From Sphingobacteriales bacterium (GTDB taxonomy: Bacteria; Bacteroidota; Bacteroidia; Chitinophagales; Chitinophagaceae): a DNA stretch of 64,000 bases. The first letter of the stretch is position 1, and every line of letters begins with the position of its first letter. Under the pieces are notes generated by a model, which was not told where the DNA came from, searched no databases, and saw nothing but the letters and a program-made list of their open reading frames with translations. Location of the stretch: the NCBI GenBank assembly GCA_037443285.1, contig JBBIOQ010000004.1, positions 23,681 to 87,680 of the forward strand. The letters run 5' to 3'. Shown here in pieces: positions 7,459 through 64,000 of this stretch. The position numbers and the translations under genes were made by a program.

Positions 7459-7608
7459 ATTTTACATCAGCGTTGCATAGCAATGTTAAGCATGTGTTTT
7501 AAGGTGAATGGGCAGGGGTTGATGATATGGGGGGAGAGGTATGTAGTAAAAGCCATGATTTTTAGCTTTCTGCCCCAAACCTCAAACCATTCGCCTACCA
7601 GGCTATCC

Positions 7609-8265
7609 TCACCATTCAGCCAGCACAGTTACACCGCCCTTTACTTTTTCGCCCATGGCAACTTTCACTTTGGCAGTAACAGGCAACAACACATCCACCC
7701 GGCTACCAAATTTGATGAAACCCATTTCCTCGCCCTGCTTCACCACCATGCCTTCGCCCAGGTAGTTTACAATGCGGCGTGCTACGGCGCCGGCTATTTG
7801 CTTCACCAGTATTTCATTGTGACCTACCTGGTACACCATGGAGTGCCTTTCATTTTCAGTAGATGATTTCGGATGCCATGCTGCCAGGTATTTGCCTGCA
7901 TGGTACTTGCTGTAGGTAACCTCGCCGCTCACCGCATTGCGGTTTACATGCACATTCAGCGGGCTCATAAAAATGCTTACCTGCAGGCGTTTGCCCTTGA
8001 AATATTCTTCATCAACCGTTTCTTCAATCACTACTACTTTGCCATCAGCAGGGCAAATTATCTGGCTATCGTTGATGGTGAGGGTTCTCGACGGAAGCCG
8101 GAAAAACGAGATGATGAAAATCCATAACCCGAAAGTGAAAATGAAAATGAGGATGGACATCACCGGGTATTGTGGGCTGAGAAACCATACTGACAAGCCA
8201 TTGAGCGCCCCGAGCAACAAAGTGGCCAGGCCAATGCTTGCAAAACCTTCTTTATGAATTGTCAT
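7609..8265 (-). CDS. psd: Phosphatidylserine decarboxylase proenzyme (short form)
   Basis: 218 aa with two N-terminal TM helices and an FGSRVDV self-cleavage (G-S) region near the C-terminus. It sits next to cdsA. Confidence 0.9.
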   Translation of the reverse strand: MTIHKEGFASIGLATLLLGALNGLSVWFLSPQYPVMSILIFIFTFGLWIFIISFFRLPSRTLTINDSQIICPADGKVVVIEETVDEEYFKGKRLQVSIFMSPLNVHVNRNAVSGEVTYSKYHAGKYLAAWHPKSSTENERHSMVYQVGHNEILVKQIAGAVARRIVNYLGEGMVVKQGEEMGFIKFGSRVDVLLPVTAKVKVAMGEKVKGGVTVLAEW

Positions 8266-8343
8266 GATTTGGAAACTGAAAAATTTGAGAAAAATTCGTT
8301 CGGCAATGGTGTGAGCGGCAAAAGTAATAGTTACATGCCGAAC

Positions 8344-9207
8344 CTATTGAGTCATCAGCAAGAGTACCAGCCAAACAAATGGTGTGGCCAGCAGCATGCT
8401 GTCGAACCGGTCGAGAAAACCACCGTGGCCAGGCATCATGGTGCCGCTGTCTTTTACGCCTGCCCTGCGTTTCAGCCAGCTCTCCACCAGATCTCCTGCA
8501 GTGCCGGCTACTGCTGCCGTTAGCGAAACTGCTATGCCCATAGCAAGGCTTGTGTTCACCAGGTAGTGGGCGGAAAATGAAACCACAACCACAGCAAGTA
8601 GTACGCCTCCAATAGTCCCCTCCCAGGTTTTCTTGGGTGATATTTTTGAGAAGGGCGTTCTGCCAATCATGGAACCTACGATGTAAGCCATGGTATCATT
8701 CACCCAGAGCGATACGATAAGAAGTATCGGGAATAGCCTGCTGTTGTCGGCCATTGCAGTGTGCGAATCCTGCTGCCGAAGCAGCAGCATAAGTCCAAGG
8801 CTTAATGATATGTAAAGCAGTCCCACGGCTGCCGCTCCAAAACTTTTGAGGTGAACTGGCTTTGGATTGCTAATAATGCCGTAGGCCAATAACAGAAAGC
8901 CTGCTGCTCCAAATGGAATGAGCAGGTTGTCGCGAAGGCCATAGCCGGCAATAGCATATTGTTCGCCGCAAAACGAAAGCACTAACGAAAAACCAACCAG
9001 CATCATACCCAGTTTTTCAAAACTGCTGAAACGGTAATGATGTATTTGTTCGGTGAGCCGCAGGTATTCAAACCAGCAACCAAAATGTATGATTGCAAAT
9101 AACAACAGGAAACTCCAGTGGTTCCACAAAAGGCCCACCAGCATTACAATAGCGAAAACAACTGCGCTGATGGTACGCGTAATAAAAACTTGTTTGTTCA
9201 GTGGCAT
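8344..9207 (-). CDS. cdsA: Phosphatidate cytidylyltransferase
   Basis: 287-aa polytopic protein. The C-terminal signature is SWLKRRAGVKDSGTMMPGHGGFLDRFDS (CDS family SxxKRxxxxKDxxxxxPGHGGxxDRxD). Confidence 0.92.
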   Translation of the reverse strand: MPLNKQVFITRTISAVVFAIVMLVGLLWNHWSFLLLFAIIHFGCWFEYLRLTEQIHHYRFSSFEKLGMMLVGFSLVLSFCGEQYAIAGYGLRDNLLIPFGAAGFLLLAYGIISNPKPVHLKSFGAAAVGLLYISLSLGLMLLLRQQDSHTAMADNSRLFPILLIVSLWVNDTMAYIVGSMIGRTPFSKISPKKTWEGTIGGVLLAVVVVSFSAHYLVNTSLAMGIAVSLTAAVAGTAGDLVESWLKRRAGVKDSGTMMPGHGGFLDRFDSMLLATPFVWLVLLLMTQ

Positions 9208-9290
9208 TTCGCCAAAGTTCCTTCAAATAGGCCAATTAACAATTATTGTTGCAGGTACTTTACCCTGCGATACAGGTTAAAAAAAACAGT

Positions 9291-10649
9291 TTACACAAGT
9301 TTCAAATTCACCGGGTCCCACATGATGTACTTCTTGCCAAAATAACTGTCGTTGCAGAGCAGCGCAGGTGCGCAAGCCCTGAAGCCAAACATGGGGTCTT
9401 CCACAACGGTGCCGCCTTGACGGATAGCCCTGAAGAAATTACCGAAGTGGTCATAGTGCGCACCTTTGTATCCTTCTTCTGCTTTGTAAACCGTTTCCCT
9501 GGGTGGCAGCATTTTCTTTCTGCCTTCCGGGTTGCCTGCATTTTCCGATGACTTTGATTTAAGGAACGGGTCATCGCTTTCAGCATTGGCATTCAGGCGT
9601 ACCGTTAATTTATCCCACTCCACATCCATACTGCCTTTGCTACCGTTTAGGCGCAGGTAGGTTGTGCCACTGGTGCCGTCAATGAAATTGCAGCGCAGGC
9701 TTAGGTCAAAACTCGGATGCTCTTTCGTTTCCGGATAGTCGAACATGCCCAGCAACACATCAGGTACATCGCGACCATCTTTCCAGTAACGCAGTCCGCC
9801 CATGGCAGCAATTTTTACAGGGCCCATACTGTTGGTAATAAAATGGAGGCTGCTAAATAGATGCACAAACAAATCACCGCTCATGCCGGTACCATAATCG
9901 AGATAATTGCGCCAGCGGAAAAATCGCAATGCGTCGAAGGGATGTTTTGTTGCACCATTTTCGTAGCGTTCCCATGCTACAGTTTCCACTGATGCATCGG
10001 CTGGAATTTTGTATTGCCATGCACCTTCAGGACTCATGCGTGCCCAAAAACCTTCGGCATAATTGAGTTCGCCAATTGCGCCTGCAGCCAACAGTTCTTT
10101 TGCTTTTTCATTTCCCAATGAACTGAGGCCCTGGCTGCCTACCTGGTATACTTTGCCGCTTTTTTTCCATGCATTCACCAGTTGCCATCCTTCGCTAACG
10201 GCATGCAACATGGGCTTTTCGCAGTACACATGTTTGCCCGCTTCAAGTGCAGACACACTGATGGGCATGTGCCAGTGGTCGGGGGTTCCAATGATGACAG
10301 CATCTACATCGGAGCGCTTCAGGAGTTCTTTGTAATCGTTGGTAACAAACAGGTTGCTGCCCCATCGATCTCTTGCAGCATCCAGCCTGCCTTTGTACAA
10401 ATCGCAAACGGCAGTAATAGAAACACCGGCATGCAAAAGTGCTGTTTTCATGTCTTCACTGCCCATACCGCCAGCACCAATAAGGCCCATGCGTATAGGT
10501 TTATCATCATCCCATTCAATATTCTTTCTAAAAATGGATTCATCATTTGCTGAATTTTCATCAGCTGCAAATAGTTTGTTGCCAGCTACAAGCGCTGCGC
10601 CTGCCAAACCCATTTGCTGCAAAAATGATCGACGGTTTTTGTTACTCAT
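9291..10649 (-). CDS. Gfo/Idh/MocA family oxidoreductase with twin-arginine signal
   Basis: 452 aa. N-terminal RRSFLQQMGLAGAALVAG (Tat-like), then the Rossmann motif MGLIGAGGMGSEDM. Confidence 0.85.
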   Translation of the reverse strand: MSNKNRRSFLQQMGLAGAALVAGNKLFAADENSANDESIFRKNIEWDDDKPIRMGLIGAGGMGSEDMKTALLHAGVSITAVCDLYKGRLDAARDRWGSNLFVTNDYKELLKRSDVDAVIIGTPDHWHMPISVSALEAGKHVYCEKPMLHAVSEGWQLVNAWKKSGKVYQVGSQGLSSLGNEKAKELLAAGAIGELNYAEGFWARMSPEGAWQYKIPADASVETVAWERYENGATKHPFDALRFFRWRNYLDYGTGMSGDLFVHLFSSLHFITNSMGPVKIAAMGGLRYWKDGRDVPDVLLGMFDYPETKEHPSFDLSLRCNFIDGTSGTTYLRLNGSKGSMDVEWDKLTVRLNANAESDDPFLKSKSSENAGNPEGRKKMLPPRETVYKAEEGYKGAHYDHFGNFFRAIRQGGTVVEDPMFGFRACAPALLCNDSYFGKKYIMWDPVNLKLV

Positions 10650-12330: not shown

Positions 12331-12535
12331 ACGGAATAGGCTGTTGTAAACGCAGTCTTAACAAGGCAATTGCAGCGAAGGCGGTTTCTGGGCTTTTCAT
12401 ATAACGGGCATGCCGCGGCCTCGCAATAATATTTTGGGGCAATACCATAAAATATTAGCATTAAATACTAAAAAGTTTAGTGTGAAAAATTAAATCCCCC
12501 TAACTTCACCGCCTTAATAATTTTATCCTTCAATA

Positions 12536-13582
12536 ATGGCTAAGAAAGACGCAACCTTAGAAACTGAAACCATGAGTAACAACGTTAACTCCGAAAAGCT
12601 AAAGGCACTCAAACTCACCATTGATAAGATTGACAAGGACTTTGGCAAGGGTAGTGTAATGATGATGAATGAGCGGGCCAATACCCAAATCGATGTCATT
12701 TCTACCGGCTCCATTGGCCTGGATGCAGCGCTGGGAATCGGCGGCTTGCCAAGGGGGCGTATTGTTGAAATCTACGGACCTGAATCGAGTGGTAAAACCA
12801 CCATTGCCACGCATGTGATAGCTGAAGCGCAAAAGAAGGGTGGCATGTGCGCCATAATAGATGCCGAACATGCTTTTGACAGCAACTATGCGCAAAAACT
12901 GGGCGTGGACGTTGACAACCTGCTCATTAGCCAGCCCGACTATGGCGAGCAGGCGTTGGAGATTGCCGACCGGCTTATTCTCTCAGGGGCACTGGATGTA
13001 GTAGTGATTGACTCGGTAGCTGCACTGGTGCCAAAAGGAGAATTGGAAGGCGAAATGGGTGACAGCAAAATGGGCCTGCAGGCACGCCTTATGAGCCAGG
13101 CTTTGCGTAAACTCACTGCCACTATCAGCAAGACAAATACAATATGCATCTTCATCAACCAGCTTCGCGAAAAAATTGGTGTGATGTTTGGCAATCCCGA
13201 AACCACTACCGGCGGCAATGCACTTAAGTTTTATGCTTCCATACGGCTCGATATACGTCGTATCAGCCAATTGAAAGATGGCGACGAAGCTGTAGGCAAC
13301 AGGGCCAGGGTGAAGGTGGTGAAGAACAAAGTGGCACCGCCTTTCCGCCAGGCTGAGTTCGACATCATTTTTGGTGAAGGCATCAGCAAAATGGGCGAGA
13401 TAGTTGACATGGGCGTGGAACTTGGCATACTGCAAAAAAGCGGTAGCTGGTTCAGCTACGACACCAACAAGCTGGGCCAGGGCCGCGATGCGGTGAAAGA
13501 ATTGCTGCGCGACAATCCGGAACTCAACGCTGAAATTGAAGGCAAAATCAGGGAGAAAATCAGGGAAATGCAAGCGGCATGA
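12536..13582 (+). CDS. recA: Recombinase RecA
   Basis: 348 aa. Walker [10 protein letters not shown], plus the conserved blocks [14 protein letters not shown] and NALKF. Confidence 0.98.
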
Positions 13583-55614: not shown

Positions 55615-56592
55615 TTACAAATCGGCTGTTTTGATTTTTTTGGGCACACGCAGCGTAAGGCTTTCAGTTTTGCCACTACGCAGCACTTTTAATCCAAGGG
55701 AAGATTTGTCGTGTGATTCTGCCAAAATCCTGCGGAGTTCATCAATATTCTTAATGTTCTCTCCTTCCACTTCGGTAATGATGTCATCCTTTTGCAGGCC
55801 TGCCTTTGCGGCCTGGCTTTCCGGCTCAATGGTGCTTACTTTGGCGCCATCTCCATCGGGATTGTCTTCCACACCCATACCAAACTTAGGCCTGTCGTCG
55901 CGGATAACATAGCCTCTTGGGCCATATGGGGCAGCAAAGGCCATCGGCGGATCAATACGGATATTGAAATCCTTCATGAAATCTTCCCCGTTCGAAAAGG
56001 CAAAGGCTTCCTCCGACCTTCCGAGGGTAACTTTCACTTTTTTCTCCTTGTCTTCGCGCAGGTAAGTCACATCAACGGTTTCTTCCGGCTTGAATTTGCG
56101 GATAGTTTCTTGCAGGCTTTGAGTGCTGGTAATCTTTGTTTCGTTCACACTGGTAATAATATCACCTTCTTTCAGACCAGCCTTTTCAGCTGCGCTTTCA
56201 TCCATTACATCGGTCACTTTTGCACCTTTGTCTGCTTGTTCGGTTACAACGCCCAGCATGGCCTTCGGCTTGTCTGAAGTTACTTTATAGTTGTAGGCTC
56301 CACCCTGGTGCGGTACCATTACATGGTTGCCATTAATGACTACGTCATCGTCTATTACAATATGCTTTTTACCCTGGTACTGATCAGCGGGCTTGCCGTT
56401 GATGGTCACTTTGTTTCCTTCAATCACAATCACTGTTTTTTCGCTGGCCTTCCCCGATTTTTCTTCAATAGTTATCTCTTTTTTCTCCTGCTTCTTCGTG
56501 TCAGGTGTTGTCTTTTGGGGAGTCTTTTGCTGGGCAATGGCTGCGGTGGCTATCACACCCAGGCAGGCCAGCAACAAGTATGTTTTTTTCAT
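55615..56592 (-). CDS. Secreted tandem-PDZ domain protein (no protease domain)
   Basis: 325 aa with a signal peptide and a Lys/Glu/Thr-rich linker. It has two PDZ-like units (AAEKAGLKEGDIITSVN and AAKAGLQKDDIITEVEG). Confidence 0.8.
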   Translation of the reverse strand: MKKTYLLLACLGVIATAAIAQQKTPQKTTPDTKKQEKKEITIEEKSGKASEKTVIVIEGNKVTINGKPADQYQGKKHIVIDDDVVINGNHVMVPHQGGAYNYKVTSDKPKAMLGVVTEQADKGAKVTDVMDESAAEKAGLKEGDIITSVNETKITSTQSLQETIRKFKPEETVDVTYLREDKEKKVKVTLGRSEEAFAFSNGEDFMKDFNIRIDPPMAFAAPYGPRGYVIRDDRPKFGMGVEDNPDGDGAKVSTIEPESQAAKAGLQKDDIITEVEGENIKNIDELRRILAESHDKSSLGLKVLRSGKTESLTLRVPKKIKTADL

Positions 56593-56614
56593 AACTAAGA
56601 AATTTTTCGTAGTT

Positions 56615-56622
56615 CAAATATA
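56615..56622 (-). promoter_or_regulatory. Candidate -7 promoter box for the PDZ gene
   Basis: The minus strand reads TATATTTG (TAnnTTTG consensus), 23 nt upstream of the ATG at 56592. Confidence 0.35.
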
Positions 56623-56724
56623 GGCAAGAAAATCATACTGCGAAAACTTTCGTAGATTTTAGAAATATTTATGAAAAGGGGGAGAGAAAGCTACTAGCTG
56701 CGAGCTTCACCGGGTTTTATGGTA

Positions 56725-56810
56725 ACTCTTGAACTTGTAAACTTGTGAACTTGTGAACTCGTGAACTATTAAACCCTAAACCTCAAACCTCAAACCTCGA
56801 ACTCCGAACC
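56725..56810. repeat. Two adjacent short tandem arrays: octamer (ACTTGTGA)x5, then heptamer (AAACCTC)x5-6
   Basis: Units read directly: actcttga|acttgtaa|acttgtga|acttgtga|actcgtga, then aaaccct|aaacctc|aaacctc|aaacctc|gaactcc|gaacc. The arrays end 5 nt from the stop of the reductase gene. Confidence 0.85.
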
Positions 56811-56814
56811 TTCC

Positions 56815-57891
56815 TCACCCATCATAATCCACTTTTACCATGGGAGTCCTTGGGTGCGACTGGCAGGTGAGGATGTAGCCCGCAGCAATTTCATCGGGTT
56901 CGAGGCCGTACACCACATCCATGTCCACCTTGCCCTCAATAAGTTTTGCCTTGCAGGTGCAGCAAACGCCGCCTTTGCAGGCATAGGGCAGGTCGGCGCC
57001 CTGCAGCAAGGCACCATCCAGAATGCTGTTGCCTACATACTCCAGCGGGAATGAAGATTCAATTCCGTCCATCTGAATGATTACTTCTGCCATGGGCTGT
57101 TTATGGCTGGGAGCGGCATCGTTTTTATGGATGGGCTTGTGTGCTGTTGATGTGTTGAACAATTCAAAATGAATGCGCTCCTTTGCAATTCCCTGCTCCA
57201 GCAAAAAGTCCCTGATGGTGAAAATCATGGCTTCGGGGCCGCAGATAAAACAATCATCAATAAGTGAAAAGTTGATGAACTTTCCAGCGAACTGGCTGCA
57301 TTTCAGTGCATCGAGCCGGCCATAGTTAATTTCTGTTTCTGTTTTTTCGCGGCTAAGCACGTGCAGCATGCGAAAGCGGTGTATGTATTTGTCCTTCAGT
57401 TCTTCCAGCTCTTCCTTAAAAATAATACTGTTGCGGTTTCGGTTGCCAAACACAAGGGTAAAAGTGCTGAAGTGCTCTGCATGCAACGTTCCTTTTATAA
57501 TGCTGATGATGGGTGTAATGCCGCTCCCTGCAGCAAATGCCAGGTAGTTTTTTCGGTGCGTTTCGTGCAGTGGGGTATAAAACCTTCCTGTTGGTGGCAT
57601 CACATCCAGGGTCATGCCTTTTTTCAGTTCTTCATTGGCCCAGCGGCTTAACTGGCCACCTTCCATTTTCTTGATGGCCACACGCCACACGCCTTCATTC
57701 GGGCCGGTGCAAAGACTGTAGTTGCGCCGCACTTCCTCTCCATTAATATTTGCCCGGATAGTAAGGTGCTGTCCTTGTGTAAATGCAAAAGTTTCCTTGA
57801 GTTCATCAGGTACATTAAAAGTTACCGTAACGCAATCTGCTGTTTCCGGCTGAACCCTTCTCACTGTAAGCGGATAAAAATGTGCGGCCAT
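56815..57891 (-). CDS. PaaE/PaaK-like ferredoxin-NAD(P) reductase (FAD + NAD + C-terminal 2Fe-2S domains)
   Basis: 358 aa. RNYSLC (FAD RxYS), AAGSGITPIISI (NAD), and a plant-type ferredoxin cysteine pattern CKGGVCCTCKAKL...LTCQ. Confidence 0.85.
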   Translation of the reverse strand: MAAHFYPLTVRRVQPETADCVTVTFNVPDELKETFAFTQGQHLTIRANINGEEVRRNYSLCTGPNEGVWRVAIKKMEGGQLSRWANEELKKGMTLDVMPPTGRFYTPLHETHRKNYLAFAAGSGITPIISIIKGTLHAEHFSTFTLVFGNRNRNSIIFKEELEELKDKYIHRFRMLHVLSREKTETEINYGRLDALKCSQFAGKFINFSLIDDCFICGPEAMIFTIRDFLLEQGIAKERIHFELFNTSTAHKPIHKNDAAPSHKQPMAEVIIQMDGIESSFPLEYVGNSILDGALLQGADLPYACKGGVCCTCKAKLIEGKVDMDVVYGLEPDEIAAGYILTCQSHPRTPMVKVDYDG

Positions 57892-57920
57892 ATTGTCTGA
57901 ATTCTTTTTTTGAGGTAGCG

Positions 57921-58021
57921 GGTGTATGGTGTATGGCGTGAGGTGAATGGTGTATGGTGTATGGTGTATGGCGTGAGGCGTGGAGCGTGCAGCATGTAGC
58001 GTGCAGCATGTAGCGTGCAGC
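57921..58021. repeat. Heptamer array (GGTGTAT/GGCGTGA, 9 units) followed by a 14-mer array (AGCGTGCAGCATGT x2.7)
   Basis: Read directly. It fills the spacer between the TetR stop (58021-58023) and the reductase start (57891). Confidence 0.88.
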
Positions 58022-58611
58022 TATTCTTTCAATCCTTCGAGCAGCAACAACACCAAATCTTCGGTTACTTGTTTGGCGCTGATGTTCCTTTTGTTTCGCT
58101 GCCAGTATTCAATACTGCGAACCGCCGATAGCAATGTAAGCACTGCAATATGCGGATGCACTTTCCTGATTTCGCCTGCATTAATGCCTTGCTCCACAAT
58201 GGCTGCAAAACGGTTTTCGTATTGACGGCGCTGATTCAAGAAGTTGCTTAGCCAAGGCTCCTTCAGATGCTTCCAATCGCGATTGCTGATGTACACGGCA
58301 TCGTGGTTTGTAAGCAGCATGTGAATGTGAAACCTGATGATGGCTTCGGCCTTTTGCAAGGCCGTTGAAGATTGCATCTCCAACTCGTCAAGGTGTGAAG
58401 TGAAATCATCAGCCACCGAAAAGCACAGCTCCCGCAGCAATTCTTCTTTGCTGCTGATGTGATTGTACAGGCTGGCTGCTTCCATGCCTATGTGTTCTGC
58501 AAGCAGGCGCATCGTAGTGGCATTGTAGCCTTTTGATTTGAACAGGCCTGCAGCTTTTTGCAGTATTTGTTGTTTGCGGGAAATTGATTTTTCTGGTGTC
58601 GTTTTCAACAT
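58021..58611 (-). CDS. TetR/AcrR family transcriptional regulator
   Basis: N-terminal HTH (RKQQILQKAAGLFKSKGYNATTMRLLAEHIGMEAASLYNHISSKEELL). Met23 of the listed ORF is preferred. Confidence 0.86.
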   Translation of the reverse strand: MLKTTPEKSISRKQQILQKAAGLFKSKGYNATTMRLLAEHIGMEAASLYNHISSKEELLRELCFSVADDFTSHLDELEMQSSTALQKAEAIIRFHIHMLLTNHDAVYISNRDWKHLKEPWLSNFLNQRRQYENRFAAIVEQGINAGEIRKVHPHIAVLTLLSAVRSIEYWQRNKRNISAKQVTEDLVLLLLEGLKE

Positions 58612-58944
58612 GACAAGCGTTTGAGAAGCAGTTGCCTTTGCAGGCGCCAGCCGTACTGTGGGTGTAGTAAATGGCACTGCAAAACTAACGCTTGTTAGCC
58701 TTTGTGGGGTAAAACTTCAGAAGTATTTCAGTGAATGGCTGATTGCAGGCAACATTGTTTTTGAAAGCTCACGGGTGAATTGAAAACCGAAAATGAGGAA
58801 AAAATCTAAGCAGAAAAATGCTCAATATGTGGCCGTAAAAAGCACATGTACTCAAAACATACGCAGAACACAAAAGCCCATAAGGCATGTTTTGCTGTTT
58901 AATGCAAGATGAATACTTGAAGTTGGTTATGAAGGGCAAGCGAG

Positions 58945-59223
58945 CTATGCAACCTCCGCCTGTGCAATTGCTGTGAAACCTGACAACCTGTTTAACTCAT
59001 TCTGATAGTCGGCCAGGAAGGATGCGAAAGGCACCTGCAGCGCACAGCAATAGTTGTGTACATCTGCAAAGCGAAGCGGATGAGCGCCCTGTTCCATTTT
59101 GTCGATGGTAGACTTTGAAACACCTAATGCCTGTGCTACATATTCTCTTTTAAGGTTCCTGGCTAACCTGTAGTGATACAAGGTGCGGGCCAAAGCTTTT
59201 TTGATGTGTTGTTGGTTGTGCAT
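58945..59223 (-). CDS. XRE-family helix-turn-helix transcriptional regulator
   Basis: 92 aa from the ATG at 59223. LKREYVAQALGVSKSTIDKMEQG is an XRE-type HTH. It is divergent from the beta-barrel/T9SS cassettes. Confidence 0.75.
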   Translation of the reverse strand: MHNQQHIKKALARTLYHYRLARNLKREYVAQALGVSKSTIDKMEQGAHPLRFADVHNYCCALQVPFASFLADYQNELNRLSGFTAIAQAEVA

Positions 59224-59433
59224 GGGAGTGAAATTTGGTGTTGGCCAAATGTACAATAGATAACCTATTGCGGCAGGGCACTTTAATATAATAAAGTTTA
59301 TAATTAATTGCCGCAGCTCAAAACATGACAATAGTCAGGTAAATGGAAATGGCGTGCATTTAAACTGTATGCAACATACATTTTAAGTAGTGAATGAGTT
59401 ACCAACCTTAGCCAGATGGTTTTAATTTTGGCA

Positions 59434-60000
59434 ATGCAAAAAAGGCAAATAATAAGTCAATCACTATTTACATTAATAATTGTGTTTGCTGGAAAATGTT
59501 CAGTTGGTCAAATAACAAAAGGAAACTGGATGATGGGAGGCGGAGCATCTTTCAGATCAGCCAAATATGAATTTGGAGGAGTTACTACAATACAAACTAC
59601 AGCGCAATTATCCGGCGATGTTGGTTATTTTATCTTAGACAAATTTTCAACTGGCTTGAAGCCCGGCTACAGCAGAACGGAAACGGACAGACCGCACAAC
59701 ATTGCAAATACCTATGTTATTGGGCCATTTGTGAGATTCTATTTTTTGCAGCCGGAAAAGTATGTAAACATATTTTCAGAATTGGGTTATCAATATGGAA
59801 TAACAATGACCAATCAGGGGGTAAAAGAGAATAGTAATAATTTTTCCGGGTTATTGGGCTGTGCAGCATTTTTTAACAGTAATGTGGCGTTGGAATTTAC
59901 CCTTGGATACTCTTCCTACTTGTACAATAATAATAGAGGGAAAGTCAATTCTGTAGTGGCAGGGGTTGGCTTCCATTTTCACCTTGAAAATGAGAAATAA
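59434..60000 (+). CDS. Small outer-membrane beta-barrel protein (8-strand OMP_b-brl-like), cassette 1
   Basis: About 188 aa with a signal peptide. It shows alternating beta-strand patterns and a terminal aromatic motif GVGFHFHLE. It aligns along its full length (partial identity, by eye) with the protein at 61855-62421. Confidence 0.75.
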   Translation: MQKRQIISQSLFTLIIVFAGKCSVGQITKGNWMMGGGASFRSAKYEFGGVTTIQTTAQLSGDVGYFILDKFSTGLKPGYSRTETDRPHNIANTYVIGPFVRFYFLQPEKYVNIFSELGYQYGITMTNQGVKENSNNFSGLLGCAAFFNSNVALEFTLGYSSYLYNNNRGKVNSVVAGVGFHFHLENEK

Positions 60001-60027
60001 TTATTAAAACTCACTAAATGTAATTTT

Positions 60028-60081
60028 ATGAACAAGAAATAATGTCTGGCGTACTGCCTTCTAATAATATCAAGTATTAAT
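60028..60081 (+). other. Remnant signal-peptide coding segment interrupted by an in-frame TAA (60040-60042)
   Basis: ATG AAC AAG AAA TAA TGT CTG GCG TAC TGC CTT CTA ATA ATA TCA AGT ATT AAT is in frame with the ATG at 60082. It translates as MNKK*CLAYCLLIISSIN and parallels MNKHLAKLVCIIGLLSNCN of copy 2. Confidence 0.65.
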
Positions 60082-61728
60082 ATGACTTATTCCCAATTAG
60101 TCATTGACTATTCTGCATGGAGTTCCAATCAATGCAATTCCTTTTACCCATCTACGATTATTAATAATACATTACACATGACAACATGTGGTACAGTTAT
60201 ATATGATAATGTAAATCACGCTATTGAGTTAGACACTAGGGCAGAAAGTAATATTTATAAATGTACAGAATATAAAATTGGCTTCAGTTTTAAGCAAGGA
60301 TATAGTTATACAATAAAATTAAATGCATGGTGCAATACACCAACGTCGCCCGTACCTAACTCCAAGATGAGAGTTGATTTTAACAGTGCATCTAATGGCA
60401 GTGGAGTTTTTTGCAATGGTGTTGAATCGTTTAATATTACTTCCTCATTGACCATCGATAATAACCTGCCACTCAATCCAAGTGTATTTTCAGACTATTC
60501 ATTTCATTTCAACTCATTATCTCAACCACAGAGTTTCTTATACATCGGCGGTTTCCTACCATACATAAATGGAACCGCAACTTCATGGATTTTAATTAAA
60601 AAAGTAAGCATTACTGAGATACCCCCTCCAGTATCATTTACATTATCGCCATCAAATCTCACTATTCCATGTGGTTCTATCACACCTCAAACATTCAGAG
60701 TGACAAATGTTTATAACACCCCAAATGTTGCAAATTACCGTTGGAATTTAGGTGCCAACAATGGCTGGTTATATAATGGTATTGCAGCGCCGGACACAAT
60801 TTCCACGGGAGCTGTAGATTCATTGATGCTTACTCCAGCCTGTAGTGATGTGAAGCATAATATTAGTGTTACAGTAACAGCAGGGGGGAACAATTATCAA
60901 ACAAATTCTGTCAGTGTAAGTAATTCATCACCCACACTTTCAATCAATGGCAGCAGTGCATTCTGTTTGGATTCAAGTTCTTATTTTCTTGATGGTGTGC
61001 CGTGCCGTGCCTCAGTATCCTGGATATCGTCCAATACTAGTATTGCTACCGTAACCTCAACAGGAAATCCTGCAACACTGACAAAAACGGGTGACGGCAC
61101 TTTAACCCTGACGGCCACAGTAAATGGTGTAAATTGTTTGAGTAATAATGCTGCTTTAAAATCAGTGGCTGTGGGAGCGCCGCAGGCCAATAATATTTCA
61201 CTTTGGAATTCGGCGGGCAGCATCACCATAGGACAGCCAGTGGGTTTCGTTGCAGGCTATCCTCCTGCCAATCGCTGTCAAATACAATCAACAGAATGGC
61301 AGGTGCTTAATATGGGCTATTCAATTTATACAGGCAATTTTCCATGTGAACCGGACAATGAGACAAGTAAAAATATTTTCCTTGAATCGGAGGGCACAGC
61401 GTATGTGCAGGCCCGCATTCAAAATAGCTGCGGATGGAGTAACTGGAGTGCTGCGGTGCCCATTCAGGTAAGTTCAGGATACTACTTTTTGGTTTCTCCT
61501 AATCCCGCCACATCAACAATTGCTGTTAGCCCAAAGGCCACTACTACAGACGAGATTTCGGAAATCCGCATTTACGATAACATGGGCAATTTGAAAAAGC
61601 AAATGCGATATAGCAAGGGCACCAAGCGTACGCAACTAAACATTGGTGACCTTGGAAATGGGTATTACTTTATTGAAGTGATTGCTAGCCAAAAAAGGGA
61701 CAGGCAACAATTGATAATACAGCGATAA
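60082..61728 (+). CDS. Cys-rich T9SS-sorted surface protein (variable head + Big_2-like Ig domain + type-A CTD), cassette 1; possibly 5'-disrupted
   Basis: 548 aa. Big_2-like SWISSNTSIATVTSTGNPATLTKTGDGTLTLTATVNG, then a C-terminal Por/T9SS sorting domain (YYFLVSPNPATSTIAV...IRIYDNMGNL...GYYFIEV). As called, it lacks a signal peptide. Confidence 0.82.
   Translation: MTYSQLVIDYSAWSSNQCNSFYPSTIINNTLHMTTCGTVIYDNVNHAIELDTRAESNIYKCTEYKIGFSFKQGYSYTIKLNAWCNTPTSPVPNSKMRVDFNSASNGSGVFCNGVESFNITSSLTIDNNLPLNPSVFSDYSFHFNSLSQPQSFLYIGGFLPYINGTATSWILIKKVSITEIPPPVSFTLSPSNLTIPCGSITPQTFRVTNVYNTPNVANYRWNLGANNGWLYNGIAAPDTISTGAVDSLMLTPACSDVKHNISVTVTAGGNNYQTNSVSVSNSSPTLSINGSSAFCLDSSSYFLDGVPCRASVSWISSNTSIATVTSTGNPATLTKTGDGTLTLTATVNGVNCLSNNAALKSVAVGAPQANNISLWNSAGSITIGQPVGFVAGYPPANRCQIQSTEWQVLNMGYSIYTGNFPCEPDNETSKNIFLESEGTAYVQARIQNSCGWSNWSAAVPIQVSSGYYFLVSPNPATSTIAVSPKATTTDEISEIRIYDNMGNLKKQMRYSKGTKRTQLNIGDLGNGYYFIEVIASQKRDRQQLIIQR
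60628..61586 (+). repeat. Direct repeat copy A (pairs with 63042-64000, offset 2414 bp)
   Basis: About 12 mismatches in the first 184 bp, then no mismatch from 60812 to 61586 versus 63226-64000 (775 bp, checked line by line). The repeat probably continues beyond the window. Confidence 0.95.
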
Positions 61729-61854
61729 AGTTTTCTTATTAAACAATTTGAATGTGAGCCTTGCAAAGACACCGGGCAGATTGTTGATAAATGGTGGCTC
61801 ATGTTCAGGGCAAATGCTTCGCCCAGAACATAGGCTCAACTCAAACGAAAGCAA

Positions 61855-62421
61855 ATGATTAGAATAATATTTATCCCCATCTTGATTGCGTTTTTTTCAT
61901 TTAATTCTAAAAGTCAGATAACAAAAGCAAATTGGCTTATGGGCGGAAGTGGGCGATTCGCAACCCAGAAGGAAACCTATAATTCTTATGTTACCAAGGA
62001 ATTAAATATTCAATTGTCACCTGCTGCAGGATATTTCTTTGCCGACAAATTTGCAGGTGGCCTCAGGGGCAAAGTGATTTATGAAAAAGTGGAATTTAAT
62101 GGTGGCGTAAGCAATAGTACCCAACTGGGAATAGGCCCCTTTTTACGTTACTATTTTCTGAACACAGAAAACCGGTTCAATCTTTTTGCCGAGTCAGCTT
62201 ACCAATACATGTATAGTTCAAGAAACTATGGGGCAGGGATTGACAGGAGTAATGACTTTACTCTTTCAGTAGGCCCTGTAATTTATTTAAATGAAACTCT
62301 TGGCATTGAAGGTGCCATAAACGGTGAATTGTATAATTACGTTGGTGCAAGTATCAGATCGATAACATTCTTTTTCAGTCTTGGTTTTCAAATTCATCTT
62401 GAAAAGGAAAATAGTCAATAA
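61855..62421 (+). CDS. Small outer-membrane beta-barrel protein, cassette 2
   Basis: 188 aa with a signal peptide. It shares the blocks QITK(G/A)NW(M/L)MGG, GPF(V/L)R(F/Y)YFL and a terminal F(H/Q)(F/I)HLE with cassette 1. Confidence 0.75.
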   Translation: MIRIIFIPILIAFFSFNSKSQITKANWLMGGSGRFATQKETYNSYVTKELNIQLSPAAGYFFADKFAGGLRGKVIYEKVEFNGGVSNSTQLGIGPFLRYYFLNTENRFNLFAESAYQYMYSSRNYGAGIDRSNDFTLSVGPVIYLNETLGIEGAINGELYNYVGASIRSITFFFSLGFQIHLEKENSQ

Positions 62422-62438
62422 CAATTAATATCTCCGCA

Positions 62439-64000
62439 ATGAATAAGCATTTAGCAAAATTGGTTTGCATTATTGGGCTGCTTTCCAATTGCAATTGGTG
62501 CAACTCGCAAACAACAATAATTAGCTACTTGAATAGTGGTTTAAGTACATCGGCATGCAACGTATTTAGCCCTTCTGTATCCATTAGTGGAGTGCTCCAC
62601 TCTTCACACGCTGGAGGCGTTACCTTCAATTCAACAAACGGGATCGGCCTTAGTACCTCACCACAAGTAAATCCGTCCAAGGCAACTGCTTATATTATCA
62701 ATTACAATTTTATTCCAGGTCATAATTACAACATAACAATTACAGCTATAGGTAATACAGCATTGCAGATGAAAACTTCAGTTGTTCCAAATTTGGTTCA
62801 ATTTCCAACCAACGGGACTGCGCAATGTCCAACTGACGTAAATGTTAGTTCTTATCAAACTGTCGGTGTTGGGCAATTTTCATCAGCTACATCCACAACA
62901 TCAGCGAATTATAACATACCTCAATTTAGTATACCTGGAACTGCCACTTATCCATATCTGATTGTTTGGGTATCAGGTGGCAATATTTCTCAATCAATCG
63001 ATGTGCTTTATATAAGTCAAGTAGTAATTACACAAACAACTCCAGTATCATTTACATTATCGCCATCAAATCTATCCGTTGCATGTGGTTCTACCACACC
63101 TCAAACATTCAGAGTGACAAATGTTTATAACACCCCAAATGTTACAAATTACCGCTGGAATTTAGGTGCCAACAACGGCTGGTTAAATAATGGTATTGCA
63201 GCGCCGGAAACAATTTCCACGGGAACTGTAGATTCATTGATGCTTACTCCAGCCTGTAGTGATGTGAAGCATAATATTAGTGTTACAGTAACAGCAGGGG
63301 GGAACAATTATCAAACAAATTCTGTCAGTGTAAGTAATTCATCACCCACACTTTCAATCAATGGCAGCAGTGCATTCTGTTTGGATTCAAGTTCTTATTT
63401 TCTTGATGGTGTGCCGTGCCGTGCCTCAGTATCCTGGATATCGTCCAATACTAGTATTGCTACCGTAACCTCAACAGGAAATCCTGCAACACTGACAAAA
63501 ACGGGTGACGGCACTTTAACCCTGACGGCCACAGTAAATGGTGTAAATTGTTTGAGTAATAATGCTGCTTTAAAATCAGTGGCTGTGGGAGCGCCGCAGG
63601 CCAATAATATTTCACTTTGGAATTCGGCGGGCAGCATCACCATAGGACAGCCAGTGGGTTTCGTTGCAGGCTATCCTCCTGCCAATCGCTGTCAAATACA
63701 ATCAACAGAATGGCAGGTGCTTAATATGGGCTATTCAATTTATACAGGCAATTTTCCATGTGAACCGGACAATGAGACAAGTAAAAATATTTTCCTTGAA
63801 TCGGAGGGCACAGCGTATGTGCAGGCCCGCATTCAAAATAGCTGCGGATGGAGTAACTGGAGTGCTGCGGTGCCCATTCAGGTAAGTTCAGGATACTACT
63901 TTTTGGTTTCTCCTAATCCCGCCACATCAACAATTGCTGTTAGCCCAAAGGCCACTACTACAGACGAGATTTCGGAAATCCGCATTTACGATAACATGGG
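62439..64000 (+). CDS. Cys-rich T9SS-sorted surface protein, cassette 2 (3' end beyond window)
   Basis: Open frame from the ATG at 62439 to the window edge; it is not in the ORF track because it has no stop. It has an intact signal peptide MNKHLAKLVCIIGLLSNCNWCNSQ and a head that differs from copy 1. From codon 202 it matches copy 1. Confidence 0.85.
   Translation, partial: MNKHLAKLVCIIGLLSNCNWCNSQTTIISYLNSGLSTSACNVFSPSVSISGVLHSSHAGGVTFNSTNGIGLSTSPQVNPSKATAYIINYNFIPGHNYNITITAIGNTALQMKTSVVPNLVQFPTNGTAQCPTDVNVSSYQTVGVGQFSSATSTTSANYNIPQFSIPGTATYPYLIVWVSGGNISQSIDVLYISQVVITQTTPVSFTLSPSNLSVACGSTTPQTFRVTNVYNTPNVTNYRWNLGANNGWLNNGIAAPETISTGTVDSLMLTPACSDVKHNISVTVTAGGNNYQTNSVSVSNSSPTLSINGSSAFCLDSSSYFLDGVPCRASVSWISSNTSIATVTSTGNPATLTKTGDGTLTLTATVNGVNCLSNNAALKSVAVGAPQANNISLWNSAGSITIGQPVGFVAGYPPANRCQIQSTEWQVLNMGYSIYTGNFPCEPDNETSKNIFLESEGTAYVQARIQNSCGWSNWSAAVPIQVSSGYYFLVSPNPATSTIAVSPKATTTDEISEIRIYDNM
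63042..64000 (+). repeat. Direct repeat copy B (pairs with 60628-61586)
   Basis: See copy A. The duplicated ORF-track entries 60981-61229/63395-63643 and 61250-61471/63664-63885 have identical translations. Confidence 0.95.

What the first reader, a model, noticed from the sequence alone, without database searches (positions are those of the whole stretch)
58945..64000. Tandem cassettes of a small OM beta-barrel plus a T9SS-sorted variable-head surface protein, next to an XRE regulator in an AT-richer island
Seen in sequence:
- A divergent XRE-type HTH gene (58945-59223) faces at least two consecutive two-gene cassettes. Each has a ~190-aa 8-strand-type OM beta-barrel gene (59434-60000; 61855-62421), followed after 17-80 nt by a ~550-aa Cys-rich protein with a Big_2-like Ig domain and a type-A T9SS C-terminal sorting domain (60082-61728; 62439->64000).
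- The two barrels are clearly homologous but diverged.
- The two cargo proteins have ~200-aa N-terminal heads that align only loosely. They share spacing of a few Cys/aromatic positions and the junction ...V(S/V)IT(E/Q)..PVSFTLSPSNL. Downstream of that junction they are nearly identical.
- The region looks noticeably more AT-rich by eye than the rest of the window, and the array may continue past 64000.

Inference:
- This looks like a modular, diversifying family of surface lectin/adhesin-like proteins (constant stalk and sorting signal, swappable head), each with a dedicated small barrel partner.
- The only established T9SS cargo/partner pairing I know is type-B-CTD cargo with PorP/SprF-like barrels. 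These barrels are far smaller and the CTDs look type-A, so a pairing here would be a different arrangement.
Basis: partly seen in the sequence, partly recalled or inferred. Interest (0 to 1): 0.7.

Follow-up and report, generated by a model that had tools for sequence, protein, structure and literature searches.

The report
Small barrel plus T9SS lectin-like protein cassettes
The window ends in a tandem array of a two-gene unit, a tiny outer-membrane barrel followed by a secreted sugar-binding-like surface protein, and this unnamed pairing recurs across many Bacteroidota genomes, which hints at a new kind of partner for type IX secretion cargo.

Summary
The region 59434-64000 carries two barrel-plus-cargo cassettes next to a divergent XRE gene, and its GC is 0.39-0.42 against about 0.465 for the rest of the window.

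- **Barrels:** 8-stranded OmpA-TM/NspA/OmpX-like proteins (AF2 pLDDT 89). They are not PorP/SprF.
- **Cargos:** signal peptide, a CBM-like beta-sandwich head (pLDDT 91), Ig/PKD-like stalk domains and a type-A T9SS C-terminal domain.
- **The pairing is conserved:** in 80 barrel loci from Chitinophagia, Sphingobacteriia and Flavobacteriia, 52 (65%) have a homologous cargo a median 17 nt downstream. Four of 5 loci found through the cargo have the barrel directly upstream.

- The "constant stalk" is a local, recent gene-conversion or duplication tract, 100% identical over at least 770 nt.
- Barrel and head are old lineages that are inherited together.
- Cargo 1 has an in-frame TAA at codon 5 of its signal peptide, so it is probably dead.
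- The XRE gene accompanies no other cassette.
- The array most likely ends with a third, orphan barrel just past the window.
- The pairing is not obligate: 35% of barrels have no cargo, and some cargos follow two to four barrels.

That the barrel docks or retains its cargo on the cell surface is inference only. No tool result shows physical contact.

The parts
58945..59223 (-). XRE-family HTH regulator gene (92 aa), divergent from the array. It is local to this genome and not a conserved part of the module.
   Evidence: Pfam HTH_31 1.3e-11, HTH_3 4e-8. No homologue next to cassettes in about 80 other loci.
59224..59433 (.). Divergent intergenic spacer. It holds a 7-nt inverted repeat TGCGGCA/TGCCGCA (59269-59275, 59309-59315) and Bacteroidota -7-like motifs TACATTTG (59246-59253, -) and TAATTTTG (59423-59430, +).
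   Evidence: The inverted repeat is one of 7 short ones. The motif count in the window is below the shuffle expectation, so these are leads only.
59434..60000 (+). Barrel 1: small 8-stranded OM beta-barrel (188 aa; an alternative ATG lies at 59416).
   Evidence: PF13505 1.5e-8. Barrel-family HMM 6e-60. 70% identical to the L012 barrel whose cargo has a head-1-type head.
60028..61728 (+). Cargo 1: a T9SS type-A cargo gene with an in-frame TAA at 60040-60042 (codon 5 of the signal peptide). The intact ORF from the internal ATG at 60082 is 548 aa. Head about 60094-60615, stalk 60616-61485, CTD 61489-61725. Probable recent pseudogene.
   Evidence: Translation MNKK*CLAYCLLIISSINMTYSQLVIDY. Homologues start with a signal peptide followed by SQ..I(D/N)Y. 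The public gene call starts at an internal Met (P0061). Por_Secre_tail 1.4e-9, TIGR04183 1.6e-7.
61729..61854 (.). Spacer between cargo 1 and barrel 2. It is part of the tract that recurs after cargo CTDs.
   Evidence: A related-strain contig (L094) has the same CTD end, spacer and barrel 5' half at 94% identity to 61564-62208.
61855..62421 (+). Barrel 2: small 8-stranded OM beta-barrel (188 aa). Signal peptide, then mature N-terminus QITKANW.
   Evidence: AF2 pLDDT 89.1, eight strands of 14-19 residues, loops of 2-7 residues. Foldseek top matches are OmpA-TM, NspA, OmpW, OprG, OmpX and PagL. Family HMM 4e-70.
62439..64000 (+). Cargo 2 (567 aa; continues to about 64142 beyond the window). Signal peptide 62439-62507, CBM-like head 62508-63035, Ig/PKD-like stalk 63036-63899, start of the type-A CTD from 63903.
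   Evidence: Full length = P0062. Por_Secre_tail 1.5e-9 on P0062. Head AF2 pLDDT 91.3. Foldseek matches CBM61/6/36/4/16, the Epf adhesin and the gingipain K adhesin.
60626..61586 (+). Copy 1 of the conversion/duplication tract (stalk + CTD), paired with 63040-64000. It probably extends through the spacer into the 5' half of barrel 2 (to about 62175-62208).
   Evidence: Identity 90-97% then 100% over at least 770 nt. The third barrel on the same contig, P0002, is identical to barrel 2 over 79 aa (barrel 2 residues 29-107) and then diverges. L094 similarity ends at 62208.
63040..64000 (+). Copy 2 of the conversion/duplication tract.

Best explanation
**What is shown**
The end of the window is a tandem array of a widespread, unnamed Bacteroidota two-gene unit transcribed in one direction.
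- Gene 1 encodes a small 8-stranded outer-membrane barrel. Its periplasm-proximal half is highly conserved and its surface-exposed half is hypervariable.
- Gene 2 lies a median 17 nt downstream. It encodes a Sec signal peptide, a CBM/lectin-like beta-sandwich head, about three Ig/PKD-like domains and a type-A T9SS C-terminal domain.

**Route to the surface (from established T9SS knowledge)**
The cargo crosses the inner membrane by Sec. It crosses the outer membrane through SprA/Sov, is handed to PorV, and loses its CTD to PorU. The barrel is inserted by BAM.

**What I infer**
The barrel is the cognate surface partner of the cargo. Its protruding variable rim would dock or retain the secreted head-plus-stalk protein non-covalently on the cell. 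The pair would then act as a cell-bound glycan-binding adhesin or receptor, rather than the protein being released.

**This genome**
- Cassettes of two old barrel-head lineages sit in tandem.
- A recent conversion or duplication has made stalk, CTD, spacer and the 5' half of the next barrel identical.
- Cargo 1 has a nonsense codon in its signal peptide and is probably inactive.
- A third, orphan barrel most likely ends the array just past 64000.
- The neighbouring XRE gene is a local feature, not part of the module.
For: **Conserved adjacency**
- 52 of 80 barrel loci have the cargo family immediately downstream, and 50 of these begin with the head. Background is 8 CTD hits in 1.05 Mb.
- Pfam Por_Secre_tail matches 24 of 29 downstream neighbours.
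- Four of 5 loci found through the cargo have the barrel directly upstream, E 1e-52 to 1e-63.
- The median gap is 17 nt.
- In the loci found through the barrel, the head part of the family HMM matches only ORFs directly after barrels. The one exception is a locus found through the cargo (L090).

**Barrel and head travel together**
- Barrel 1 is 70% and head 1 is 61% identical to the L012 pair, but the stalks are 36% identical.
- Barrel 2 is 57% and 54%, and head 2 is 69% and 60%, identical to the L006 and L001 pairs, but the stalks are 38% and 32% identical.

**Structures**
- The barrel has 8 strands of 14-19 residues with 2-7-residue loops, like OmpA-TM, NspA and OmpX.
- Conservation is 0.68 in the periplasmic halves against 0.33 in the outer halves, p = 3e-18.
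- The head is a confident beta-sandwich nearest to CBM61/6/36/4/16 and to the Epf and gingipain adhesin domains.

**CTD type**
- TIGR04183 matches cargo 1, and the family profile matches solved type-A CTDs 8qb1 and 8glk.

**Literature**
- Type-A CTDs use PorV. Only type-B cargos are known to have adjacent PorP/SprF shuttles (PMC12618676, PMC9143113).
- How PorU selects effectors for release or attachment is stated to be unresolved (PMC10202324).
Against: - No result shows physical contact between barrel and cargo.
- Barrel and head are adjacent on the DNA, so their co-inheritance may reflect linkage only.
- The mirror-tree test did not discriminate. The partial rho between head and outer barrel half was 0.32, against 0.24 for the stalk, and both were significant.
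- About 35% of barrels, including whole clades in Niastella/Longitalea and Flavobacterium/Mariniflexile, have no adjacent cargo.
- About 10 loci have 2-4 barrels per cargo.
- One full-length cargo (L090) has no barrel.
- The barrel's extracellular loops are very short, so there is little obvious binding surface.
- Head similarity to CBMs is at fold level only (TM 0.4-0.5, about 10% identity).
- In this window one of the two cargos is probably non-functional.
Confidence: 0.45

Rival explanations
1. The barrel and the cargo are independent surface proteins that are only co-regulated. They form a surface-remodelling or adhesion cassette. The cargo is attached or released by the ordinary PorV/PorU route, and the barrel has its own role as a small OmpX/NspA-type surface protein.
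For: - Both directions of the pairing are leaky: 35% of barrels lack a cargo, one cargo lacks a barrel, and the stoichiometry varies.
- The barrel's loops are very short.
- The co-divergence tests did not discriminate.
- A hypervariable outer half is what any exposed OMP under phage or predator pressure would show.
Against: - The barrel-then-head order with a 4-30 nt gap is kept across three classes of Bacteroidota.
- In the barrel-found loci the head family was found only directly after barrels. L090, found through the cargo, is the one exception.
- Decayed cassettes keep the same order (L088, L004, L046).
Confidence: 0.3
2. The barrel is a cargo-specific T9SS accessory, a shuttle or export helper. 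It would be the functional analogue of PorP/SprF for this subfamily of type-A cargos and would be needed for secretion itself, not for later retention.
For: - Genetic linkage of a cargo with an OM barrel is the hallmark of type-B cargo and PorP/SprF pairs (PMC12618676, PMC9143113).
- The periplasmic face of the barrel is strongly conserved (W-x-x-GG, GYFF-DKFAGG, GPFLRYYFL, GFQIHLEK). This could be a contact site for the conserved machinery or for the CTD.
Against: - The barrel has 8 strands and about 165 residues. It shows no similarity to the PorV-like barrels of the PorP/SprF family (PMC10202324).
- The CTD is canonical type A, and type-A CTDs are reported to be recognised by PorV (PMC12618676).
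- The same stalk and CTD occur on protease-headed cargos; whether those have a barrel was not checked.
- The gene order is barrel first. From memory, unchecked here, porP/sprF-like genes usually lie downstream of their cargo.
Confidence: 0.1
3. The barrel is an enzyme or channel of the 8-stranded OMP class (PagL/PagP-like lipid A modifier, or an OmpW/OprG-like channel for hydrophobic compounds). Its adjacency to the cargo would reflect a shared substrate or pathway rather than a protein complex.
For: - Foldseek matches include OmpW, OprG and PagL.
- The family has invariant polar residues (H181, E152, N109, Y100) and nearly invariant R98, N146 and D64.
Against: - The same fold matches OmpA-TM, NspA and OmpX equally well, at 10-16% identity.
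- The conserved polar residues lie near the periplasmic end. From memory, unchecked here, the PagL and PagP active sites sit at the outer leaflet.
- There is no family-level sequence match.
Confidence: 0.07
4. The tandem structure with its identical 1-1.5 kb tract is an assembly artefact, or the locus is a decaying remnant with no present function.
For: - A repeat 100% identical over at least 770 nt is hard to assemble from short reads.
- Cargo 1 has a premature stop.
- Cassette remnants occur elsewhere (L088, L004, L046).
Against: - The unique segments (barrel 1 + head 1, barrel 2 3' half + head 2, barrel 3 3' half) can be joined through the repeat in only one linear order.
- Every junction is in frame.
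- A graded 90-97% zone precedes the identical tract, as expected of a conversion tract.
- An independent sample gives the same CTD, spacer and barrel 3 junction (L094).
- Tandem cassettes with patchy conversion occur in other genomes (L007, L012, L044, L088).
- Cargo 2 and all three barrels are intact.
Confidence: 0.05

Closest known systems
Type-B-CTD cargo with adjacent PorP/SprF-like shuttle or anchor barrels (e.g. SprB/SprF in Flavobacterium johnsoniae, PG1035/PorP in P. gingivalis)
   Same: A T9SS cargo gene is genetically linked to its own outer-membrane beta-barrel gene. Several paralogous pairs can occur per genome. The barrel is proposed to determine the final surface location of the cargo (PMC12618676, PMC9143113).
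   Different: - The barrel here has 8 strands and about 165 mature residues. It is OmpA-TM/NspA-like, not a PorV-like PorP/SprF barrel, and has no PF11751 or TIGR03519 match.
- The CTD is type A (TIGR04183), not type B.
- The barrel gene lies upstream.
- The pairing is leaky, and no functional link has been shown.
PorG, the 8-stranded OM barrel of the T9SS core (P. gingivalis PG0189)
   Same: A small 8-stranded OM barrel in a T9SS-bearing phylum (PMC12365241).
   Different: - PorG is a single-copy core component encoded in the bamA-skp cluster. It has a conserved C-terminal Cys that is disulfide-bonded to PorK (PMC12365241).
- The barrels here are multi-copy and sit next to cargo genes. They have no conserved Cys and matched no NCBIfam model apart from two single-member chance-level hits.
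OmpX / Ail / NspA / Opa-type small adhesin barrels and the OmpA transmembrane domain (Pfam clan of OMP_b-brl, PF13505)
   Same: An 8-stranded barrel whose long strands appear to protrude above the membrane. The surface-exposed half is variable. 21 of 33 family members match PF13505.
   Different: - Sequence identity to solved barrels is 10-16%, with no sequence-level PDB match.
- The family has its own conserved motifs.
- No known member of those families is encoded as the first gene of a pair with a T9SS cargo, as far as my literature searches show.
Fibrillar or stalked adhesins with a lectin/CBM-like tip, and T9SS cargos with CBM or adhesin domains (gingipain K/HA adhesin domains, Epf)
   Same: An N-terminal beta-sandwich binding-type head on a stalk of Ig-like domains, with a C-terminal sorting signal. 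Foldseek matches CBM61/6/36/4/16, Epf and the Kgp K1/K3 adhesin domains.
   Different: - The head has no Pfam or PDB sequence match, so the resemblance is at fold level only (TM 0.4-0.5).
- The stalk has only about 3 domains.
- The ligand is unknown.

Membership tests
T9SS type-A CTD cargo | C-terminal Por_Secre_tail / TIGR04183 domain | tested here: met
   Cargo 1: PF18962 1.4e-9 and TIGR04183 1.6e-7. Full-length cargo 2 (P0062): PF18962 1.5e-9. The family profile matches solved CTDs 8qb1 (1e-9) and 8glk (1e-7).
T9SS type-A CTD cargo | N-terminal Sec signal peptide | tested here: inconclusive
   Cargo 2 has MNKHLAKLVCIIGLLSNCNWCNS|Q. The signal peptide of cargo 1 is interrupted by an in-frame TAA at codon 5. 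No signal-peptide predictor was available, so this was judged by eye and by alignment to homologues.
T9SS type-A CTD cargo | Secretion depends on the T9SS and PorV; the CTD is cleaved by PorU | not testable with these tools
   Needs secretion assays in porV/gldK/sprA mutants. T9SS genes of this genome were not looked for in the window.
Type-B CTD cargo | TIGR04131-type C-terminal domain | tested here: not met
   No such match at E <= 1 in the NCBIfam scan.
PorP/SprF family | Match to PF11751 / TIGR03519 | tested here: not met
   No match for either barrel at E <= 1, nor for the 33 family members at E <= 0.01.
PorP/SprF family | Large PorV-like barrel | tested here: not met
   The AF2 model has 8 strands in 188 aa. 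The top 50 PDB fold matches include OmpA-TM, NspA, OmpW, OprG, OmpX and PagL but no T9SS barrel.
PorG | Conserved C-terminal Cys (disulfide to PorK); gene in the bamA-skp cluster; single copy | tested here: not met
   The barrel alignment has no conserved Cys. The genes are multi-copy and lie next to cargo genes. The criteria are taken from PMC12365241. Direct sequence comparison with PorG was not possible because no PorG sequence was at hand.
OMP_b-brl (PF13505) superfamily of small OM barrels | Pfam match above the gathering score; 8-stranded barrel | tested here: met
   Barrel 1 scores 35.5 bits against a cut-off of 28.7. 21 of 33 family members match. Barrel 2 itself has no Pfam hit, but it belongs to the same family (E 2e-27) and folds as an 8-stranded barrel.
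Carbohydrate-binding modules (CBM6/36/61/4/16-like beta-sandwich) | Beta-jelly-roll/sandwich fold | tested here: met
   AF2 pLDDT 91.3. Foldseek against the PDB gives 2xom CBM61 (1.6e-5), then 8xmz, 5fui, 7ay3, 1k42 and 2zey. TM 0.4-0.5.
Carbohydrate-binding modules (CBM6/36/61/4/16-like beta-sandwich) | Sequence membership of a CBM family, or conserved ligand-binding residues | tested here: not met
   No Pfam match in the head. No PDB sequence match in the head. About 10% identity in the fold matches. Glycan binding is untested.
XRE/Cro-type HTH regulators | HTH_3/HTH_31 domain | tested here: met
   HTH_31 1.3e-11, HTH_3 4.2e-8. Regulation of the array is untested, and the XRE gene is not conserved with the module.

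The most novel reading that the evidence does not exclude
A large, unnamed family of 8-stranded OM barrels (626 clusters at 50% identity with E <= 1e-30) acts as cargo-specific surface receptors or anchors for one family of type-A-CTD T9SS proteins. This would be a second, structurally unrelated 'cargo plus cognate barrel' principle beside PorP/SprF with type-B cargo. It would decide whether a type-A cargo stays on the cell or is released. The barrel's variable outer rim and the CBM-like head would evolve as a matched pair.
Probability: 0.3. Interest if true: 0.8.

Novelty: new variant of a known kind. Interest (0 to 1): 0.6.

Why it matters
- **Open question in T9SS biology.** Only type-B cargos are known to come with their own outer-membrane barrel. 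How type-A cargos are sorted between release and surface retention is stated to be unresolved (PMC10202324).
- **A concrete candidate.** A conserved pairing, spread across three classes, of a type-A cargo family with a small barrel unrelated to PorP/SprF is a testable candidate for cargo-specific surface retention. Cultured carriers exist (Flavobacterium paronense, Psychroflexus tropicus, Sediminibacterium spp., Mariniflexile).
- **Annotation.** The work defines two families that currently have no name: the barrel family and the CBM-like head family.
- **Evolution of the array.** It shows how such arrays change. Old barrel-head units persist, the stalk and CTD are homogenised by local conversion, and cassettes are born and decay.

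Tried and rejected
1. **Extending the contig.**
   - Exact look-ups of window proteins and of P0001/P0002 found nothing on record.
   - An exact 34-mer from the window was not in genome contigs.
   - The extension therefore rests on indirect evidence: P0002 lies on the same 96,467-bp contig, and L094 comes from a related strain.
2. **Reciprocal metagenome scan.** The scan with the head alignment failed because no stretch was conserved enough. I replaced it with five cargo-based contig look-ups.
3. **Mirror-tree test.** Partial correlations between the outer half of the barrel and the head were significant, but so were those with the stalk. The test does not discriminate.
4. **Sequence searches for the barrel.**
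   - The barrel profile gave no meaningful PDB match.
   - The NCBIfam scan of 33 members gave only two single-member chance-level hits.
5. **Literature.**
   - Searches on DUF3575 and on Por_Secre_tail with OMP_b-brl found nothing relevant.
   - No paper describing this pairing turned up in the two broader T9SS searches.
6. **Regulatory signals.**
   - The sigma-70 promoter and terminator scan gave no more sites than shuffled sequence, and that consensus does not fit Bacteroidota.
   - The TAnnTTTG motif is not enriched in the window.
7. **Integration signals.** No tRNA gene lies near the island, so there is no sign of tRNA-targeted integration.
8. **PorP/SprF, PorG and type-B CTD.** I considered all three and rejected them after the membership tests.
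9. **XRE gene as part of the module.** Rejected, because no other locus has an XRE homologue beside a cassette.

Full report
**1. The observation**

- **XRE gene.** The gene at 58945-59223 on the minus strand matches HTH_31 (1.3e-11) and HTH_3.
- **Barrels.** Barrel 1 (59434-60000) matches Pfam OMP_b-brl above its gathering score. Barrel 2 (61855-62421) matches no Pfam model, but it is 35% identical to barrel 1 (E 2e-27).
- **Cargo 1.** It carries Por_Secre_tail (PF18962, 1.4e-9) and the type-A model TIGR04183 (1.6e-7). It has no type-B match.
- **Cargo comparison.** The two cargos have loosely alignable heads and nearly identical remainders. At DNA level identity is about 45% up to 60626/63040, 90-97% for the next 190 nt, and then 100% for the remaining 770 nt of the window.
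- **Composition.** GC falls to 0.39-0.42 in the last 6 kb, against 0.43-0.49 elsewhere.

**2. Corrections to the anatomy**

- **Cargo 1 has lost its signal peptide.** The ORF from 60082 starts inside a signal peptide. Read in frame from ATG 60028, the sequence is MNKK*CLAYCLLIISSINMTYSQLVIDY. Homologues begin with a signal peptide followed by SQ..I(D/N)Y. Cargo 1 therefore has a TAA at codon 5 of its signal peptide and, as it stands, would not be exported. The public gene call starts even further in (P0061).
- **Cargo 2 is 567 aa** (P0062). It ends near 64142 with a CTD identical to that of cargo 1.
- **A third barrel lies on the same contig.**
  - P0002 is on the same 96,467-bp contig. Its first 79 residues are identical to barrel 2 residues 29-107, and it then diverges.
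  - No third cargo of this family is on that contig.
  - A 1-kb contig from a related strain (L094) shows a cargo CTD end, the same spacer and a barrel-3-type gene. It is 94% identical to window 61564-62208 and divergent after that.
  - Downstream of barrel 3 in L094 there is only the end of a convergent ORF.
- **Likely layout:** XRE, then barrel 1 and cargo 1 (nonsense), then barrel 2 and cargo 2, then an orphan barrel 3. I could not retrieve the contig itself.

**3. What the proteins are**

- **Barrel 2.** AF2 gives pLDDT 89 and eight strands of 14-19 residues joined by loops of 2-7 residues. The nearest solved folds are the OmpA transmembrane domain, NspA, OmpW, OprG, OmpX and PagL, at 10-16% identity. 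No T9SS barrel appears among the top 50 matches.
- **The barrel family.**
  - It has its own motifs: QITKGNW-GG, GYFF-DKFAGG, GPFLRYYFL and GFQIHLEK.
  - It has no PDB sequence relative and no NCBIfam name.
  - Its Pfam matches are OMP_b-brl in 21 of 33 members, DUF3575 in 5 and OMP_b-brl_2 in 2. None matches PorP_SprF.
  - Mapped on the model, the periplasm-proximal halves of the strands and the turns are far more conserved than the outer halves and loops (0.68 against 0.33, p = 3e-18).
  - The family is large: 626 clusters at 50% identity with E <= 1e-30.
- **Head of cargo 2.** It folds as a confident beta-sandwich (pLDDT 91.3). The closest folds are CBM61, CBM6, CBM36, CBM4, CBM16, the Epf adhesin domain and the gingipain K adhesin domains, at TM 0.4-0.5 and about 10% identity. 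This is fold-level resemblance only.
- **Stalk.** In relatives it matches PKD_6 and aBig_2. The same stalk and CTD also occur behind M4, M43, trypsin-like and subtilase heads in other T9SS cargos.
- **CTD.** The family profile matches solved type-A CTDs (8qb1, 8glk, 8glj).

**4. Is the pairing real?**

A barrel-profile scan of one genome per species returned 79 loci from Chitinophagia, Sphingobacteriia and Flavobacteriia. I searched them with frameshift-tolerant HMMs.

- Of 80 barrel runs with at least 600 nt downstream, 52 (65%) are immediately followed on the same strand by a homologue of the window cargos. Fifty of these begin with the head.
- The median gap is 17 nt.
- Elsewhere in the same 1.05 Mb there are only 8 CTD hits.
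- Pfam confirms Por_Secre_tail in 24 of 29 full-length neighbours.
- In the reverse direction, I took five cargo homologues without reference to barrels. Four have a barrel-family gene directly upstream (E 1e-52 to 1e-63). One full-length cargo (L090) has none.

The pairing is therefore strongly non-random but not obligate.

- Whole barrel clades lack a cargo (Niastella/Longitalea/Flavisolibacter, and Flavobacterium/Mariniflexile).
- About ten loci have two to four barrels before one cargo, mostly with a second head class.
- Decayed cassettes occur, as barrel plus a head remnant (L088, L004, L046).
- No other locus has an XRE homologue beside the cassette.

**5. Evolutionary reading**

- **Barrel and head are old, stalk is local.** Barrel 1 and head 1 have close counterparts in L012 (70% and 61%). 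Barrel 2 and head 2 have counterparts in L006 and L001 (57% and 54%; 69% and 60%). The stalks of those counterparts are only 32-38% identical to the window stalk.
- **Consequence.** Barrel plus head is an old unit that is inherited together. The identical stalk, CTD, spacer and barrel 5' half in the window is a recent local conversion or duplication tract. It is not a constant scaffold receiving swapped heads.
- **Other genomes.** Patchy conversion between paralogous cassettes is seen elsewhere too (L007, L012, L044).
- **GC.** Barrel genes are on average 4.2 GC points below their flanks, and lower than the flanks in 68 of 76 loci. Cargos are on average only 0.7 points below. The window's barrels are 9 points and its cargos 6 points below the rest of the window. 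Part of the AT-richness is thus a family trait and part is specific to this island.

**6. Mechanism**

- **Established T9SS knowledge.** Type-A cargos are exported by Sec, pass through SprA/Sov, are shuttled by PorV, and are processed by PorU. They are then either attached or released. How that choice is made is stated to be unresolved (PMC10202324, PMC12618676). Only type-B cargos are known to have adjacent cognate barrels, of the PorP/SprF family (PMC9143113, PMC12618676).
- **My preferred reading (confidence 0.45).** The small barrel is the surface partner that docks or retains its secreted CBM-like cargo. Its variable protruding rim would face the head.
- **What is shown.** Conserved operon-like adjacency, co-inheritance of barrel and head, the two folds, and the type of CTD.
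- **What is inferred.** Any physical contact. The mirror-tree tests did not discriminate.
- **Rivals.** Mere co-regulation of two independent surface proteins (0.3), a cargo-specific export helper (0.1), an enzyme or channel role for the barrel (0.07), and artefact or dead locus (0.05).

**7. Comparison with known systems**

- **It works like** the type-B cargo and PorP/SprF arrangement, in that a cargo has its own barrel gene.
- **It is not a member of that family.** It has no PorP_SprF match, an 8-stranded fold, a type-A CTD, and the barrel gene upstream.
- **It is not PorG** either. It has no conserved Cys, is multi-copy, and lies in a different genomic context (PMC12365241).
- The literature searches found no description of this pairing.

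**8. Verdict**

- This is a new variant of a known kind, a T9SS cargo with a cognate barrel. The genomic association is solid. The mechanism is untested.
- In this genome one cassette is probably already inactivated.
- Interest: 0.6.

Noticed in passing
window 60028-60084: Cargo 1 has an in-frame TAA (60040-60042) at codon 5 of its signal peptide. The rest of the gene is intact and is 100% identical to cargo 2 over at least 770 nt. This could be a very recent nonsense mutation, a sequencing error, or a dead gene kept 'fresh' by conversion.
   Followed up: yes
L088 2623-5782; L004 8001-8781; L046 8001-8858: Decayed cassettes occur in other genomes. A barrel is followed by a 60-100-aa remnant of the cargo head, and in L088 a further intact barrel and cargo follow. 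This suggests birth-and-death turnover of cassettes.
   Followed up: partly
L031, L039, L048, L052, L054, L072, L075, L076, L081 (barrels at about 7300-9300): Two to four tandem barrels precede a single cargo. In many of these loci the cargo has a second head class (N-terminus ...NEYCPG..YTFTVT...). The representative library also holds fused double barrels of 342-423 aa (P0145-P0148, P0155).
   Followed up: partly
P0087, P0095, P0098, P0128, P0129, P0140: The same stalk and CTD module sits behind thermolysin (M4), M43, trypsin-like and subtilase heads in other T9SS cargos. The stalk plus CTD is therefore a shared, recombining module, and these genes are possible conversion donors.
   Followed up: partly
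L007 7989-8079 vs 9738-9828; L012 7989-8079 vs 12474-12564; L044 8529-8709 vs 9470-9650: Short tracts of 83-96% identity link otherwise about 45%-identical paralogous cassettes. The tracts cover the barrel signal peptide and 5' end, or the junction between barrel end and cargo start. Patchy gene conversion is thus a family habit.
   Followed up: partly
76 barrel loci: Barrel genes have lower GC than their flanks in 68 of 76 loci, by 4.2 points on average. The cargo genes are on average only 0.7 points below their flanks.
   Followed up: yes
window 61912-61917 (barrel 2), 62505-62510 (cargo 2); alignment A1 column Q21: The predicted signal-peptide cleavage leaves an N-terminal Gln in nearly all barrels and cargos (SKS|QITK, CNS|QTT). 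This fits the Bacteroidota 'Q-rule' of pyroglutamate N-termini, which I recall from the literature and did not check here.
   Followed up: no
window 59246-59253 (-), 59423-59430 (+): Bacteroidota -7-like motifs (TAnnTTTG) lie just upstream of the XRE start and just before the barrel 1 ATG. None lies in the 61729-61854 spacer, so cassette 2 may be read through from cassette 1. The motif is not enriched in the window.
   Followed up: no
window 55615-58677: The genes left of the island look like ordinary core genes, judged by reading the translations only: a PDZ-domain protein (55615-56592, -), a PaaE-like ferredoxin reductase with a C-terminal 2Fe-2S motif (56815-57891, -) and a TetR-like regulator (58021-58677, -). 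The GC drop begins right after them.
   Followed up: no
L090 3533-5728: The one full-length cargo without a barrel (Terrimonas-like, P0125) has a small GIY-YIG ORF upstream and an RHS/YD-repeat toxin gene with an AHH nuclease domain nearby.
   Followed up: no
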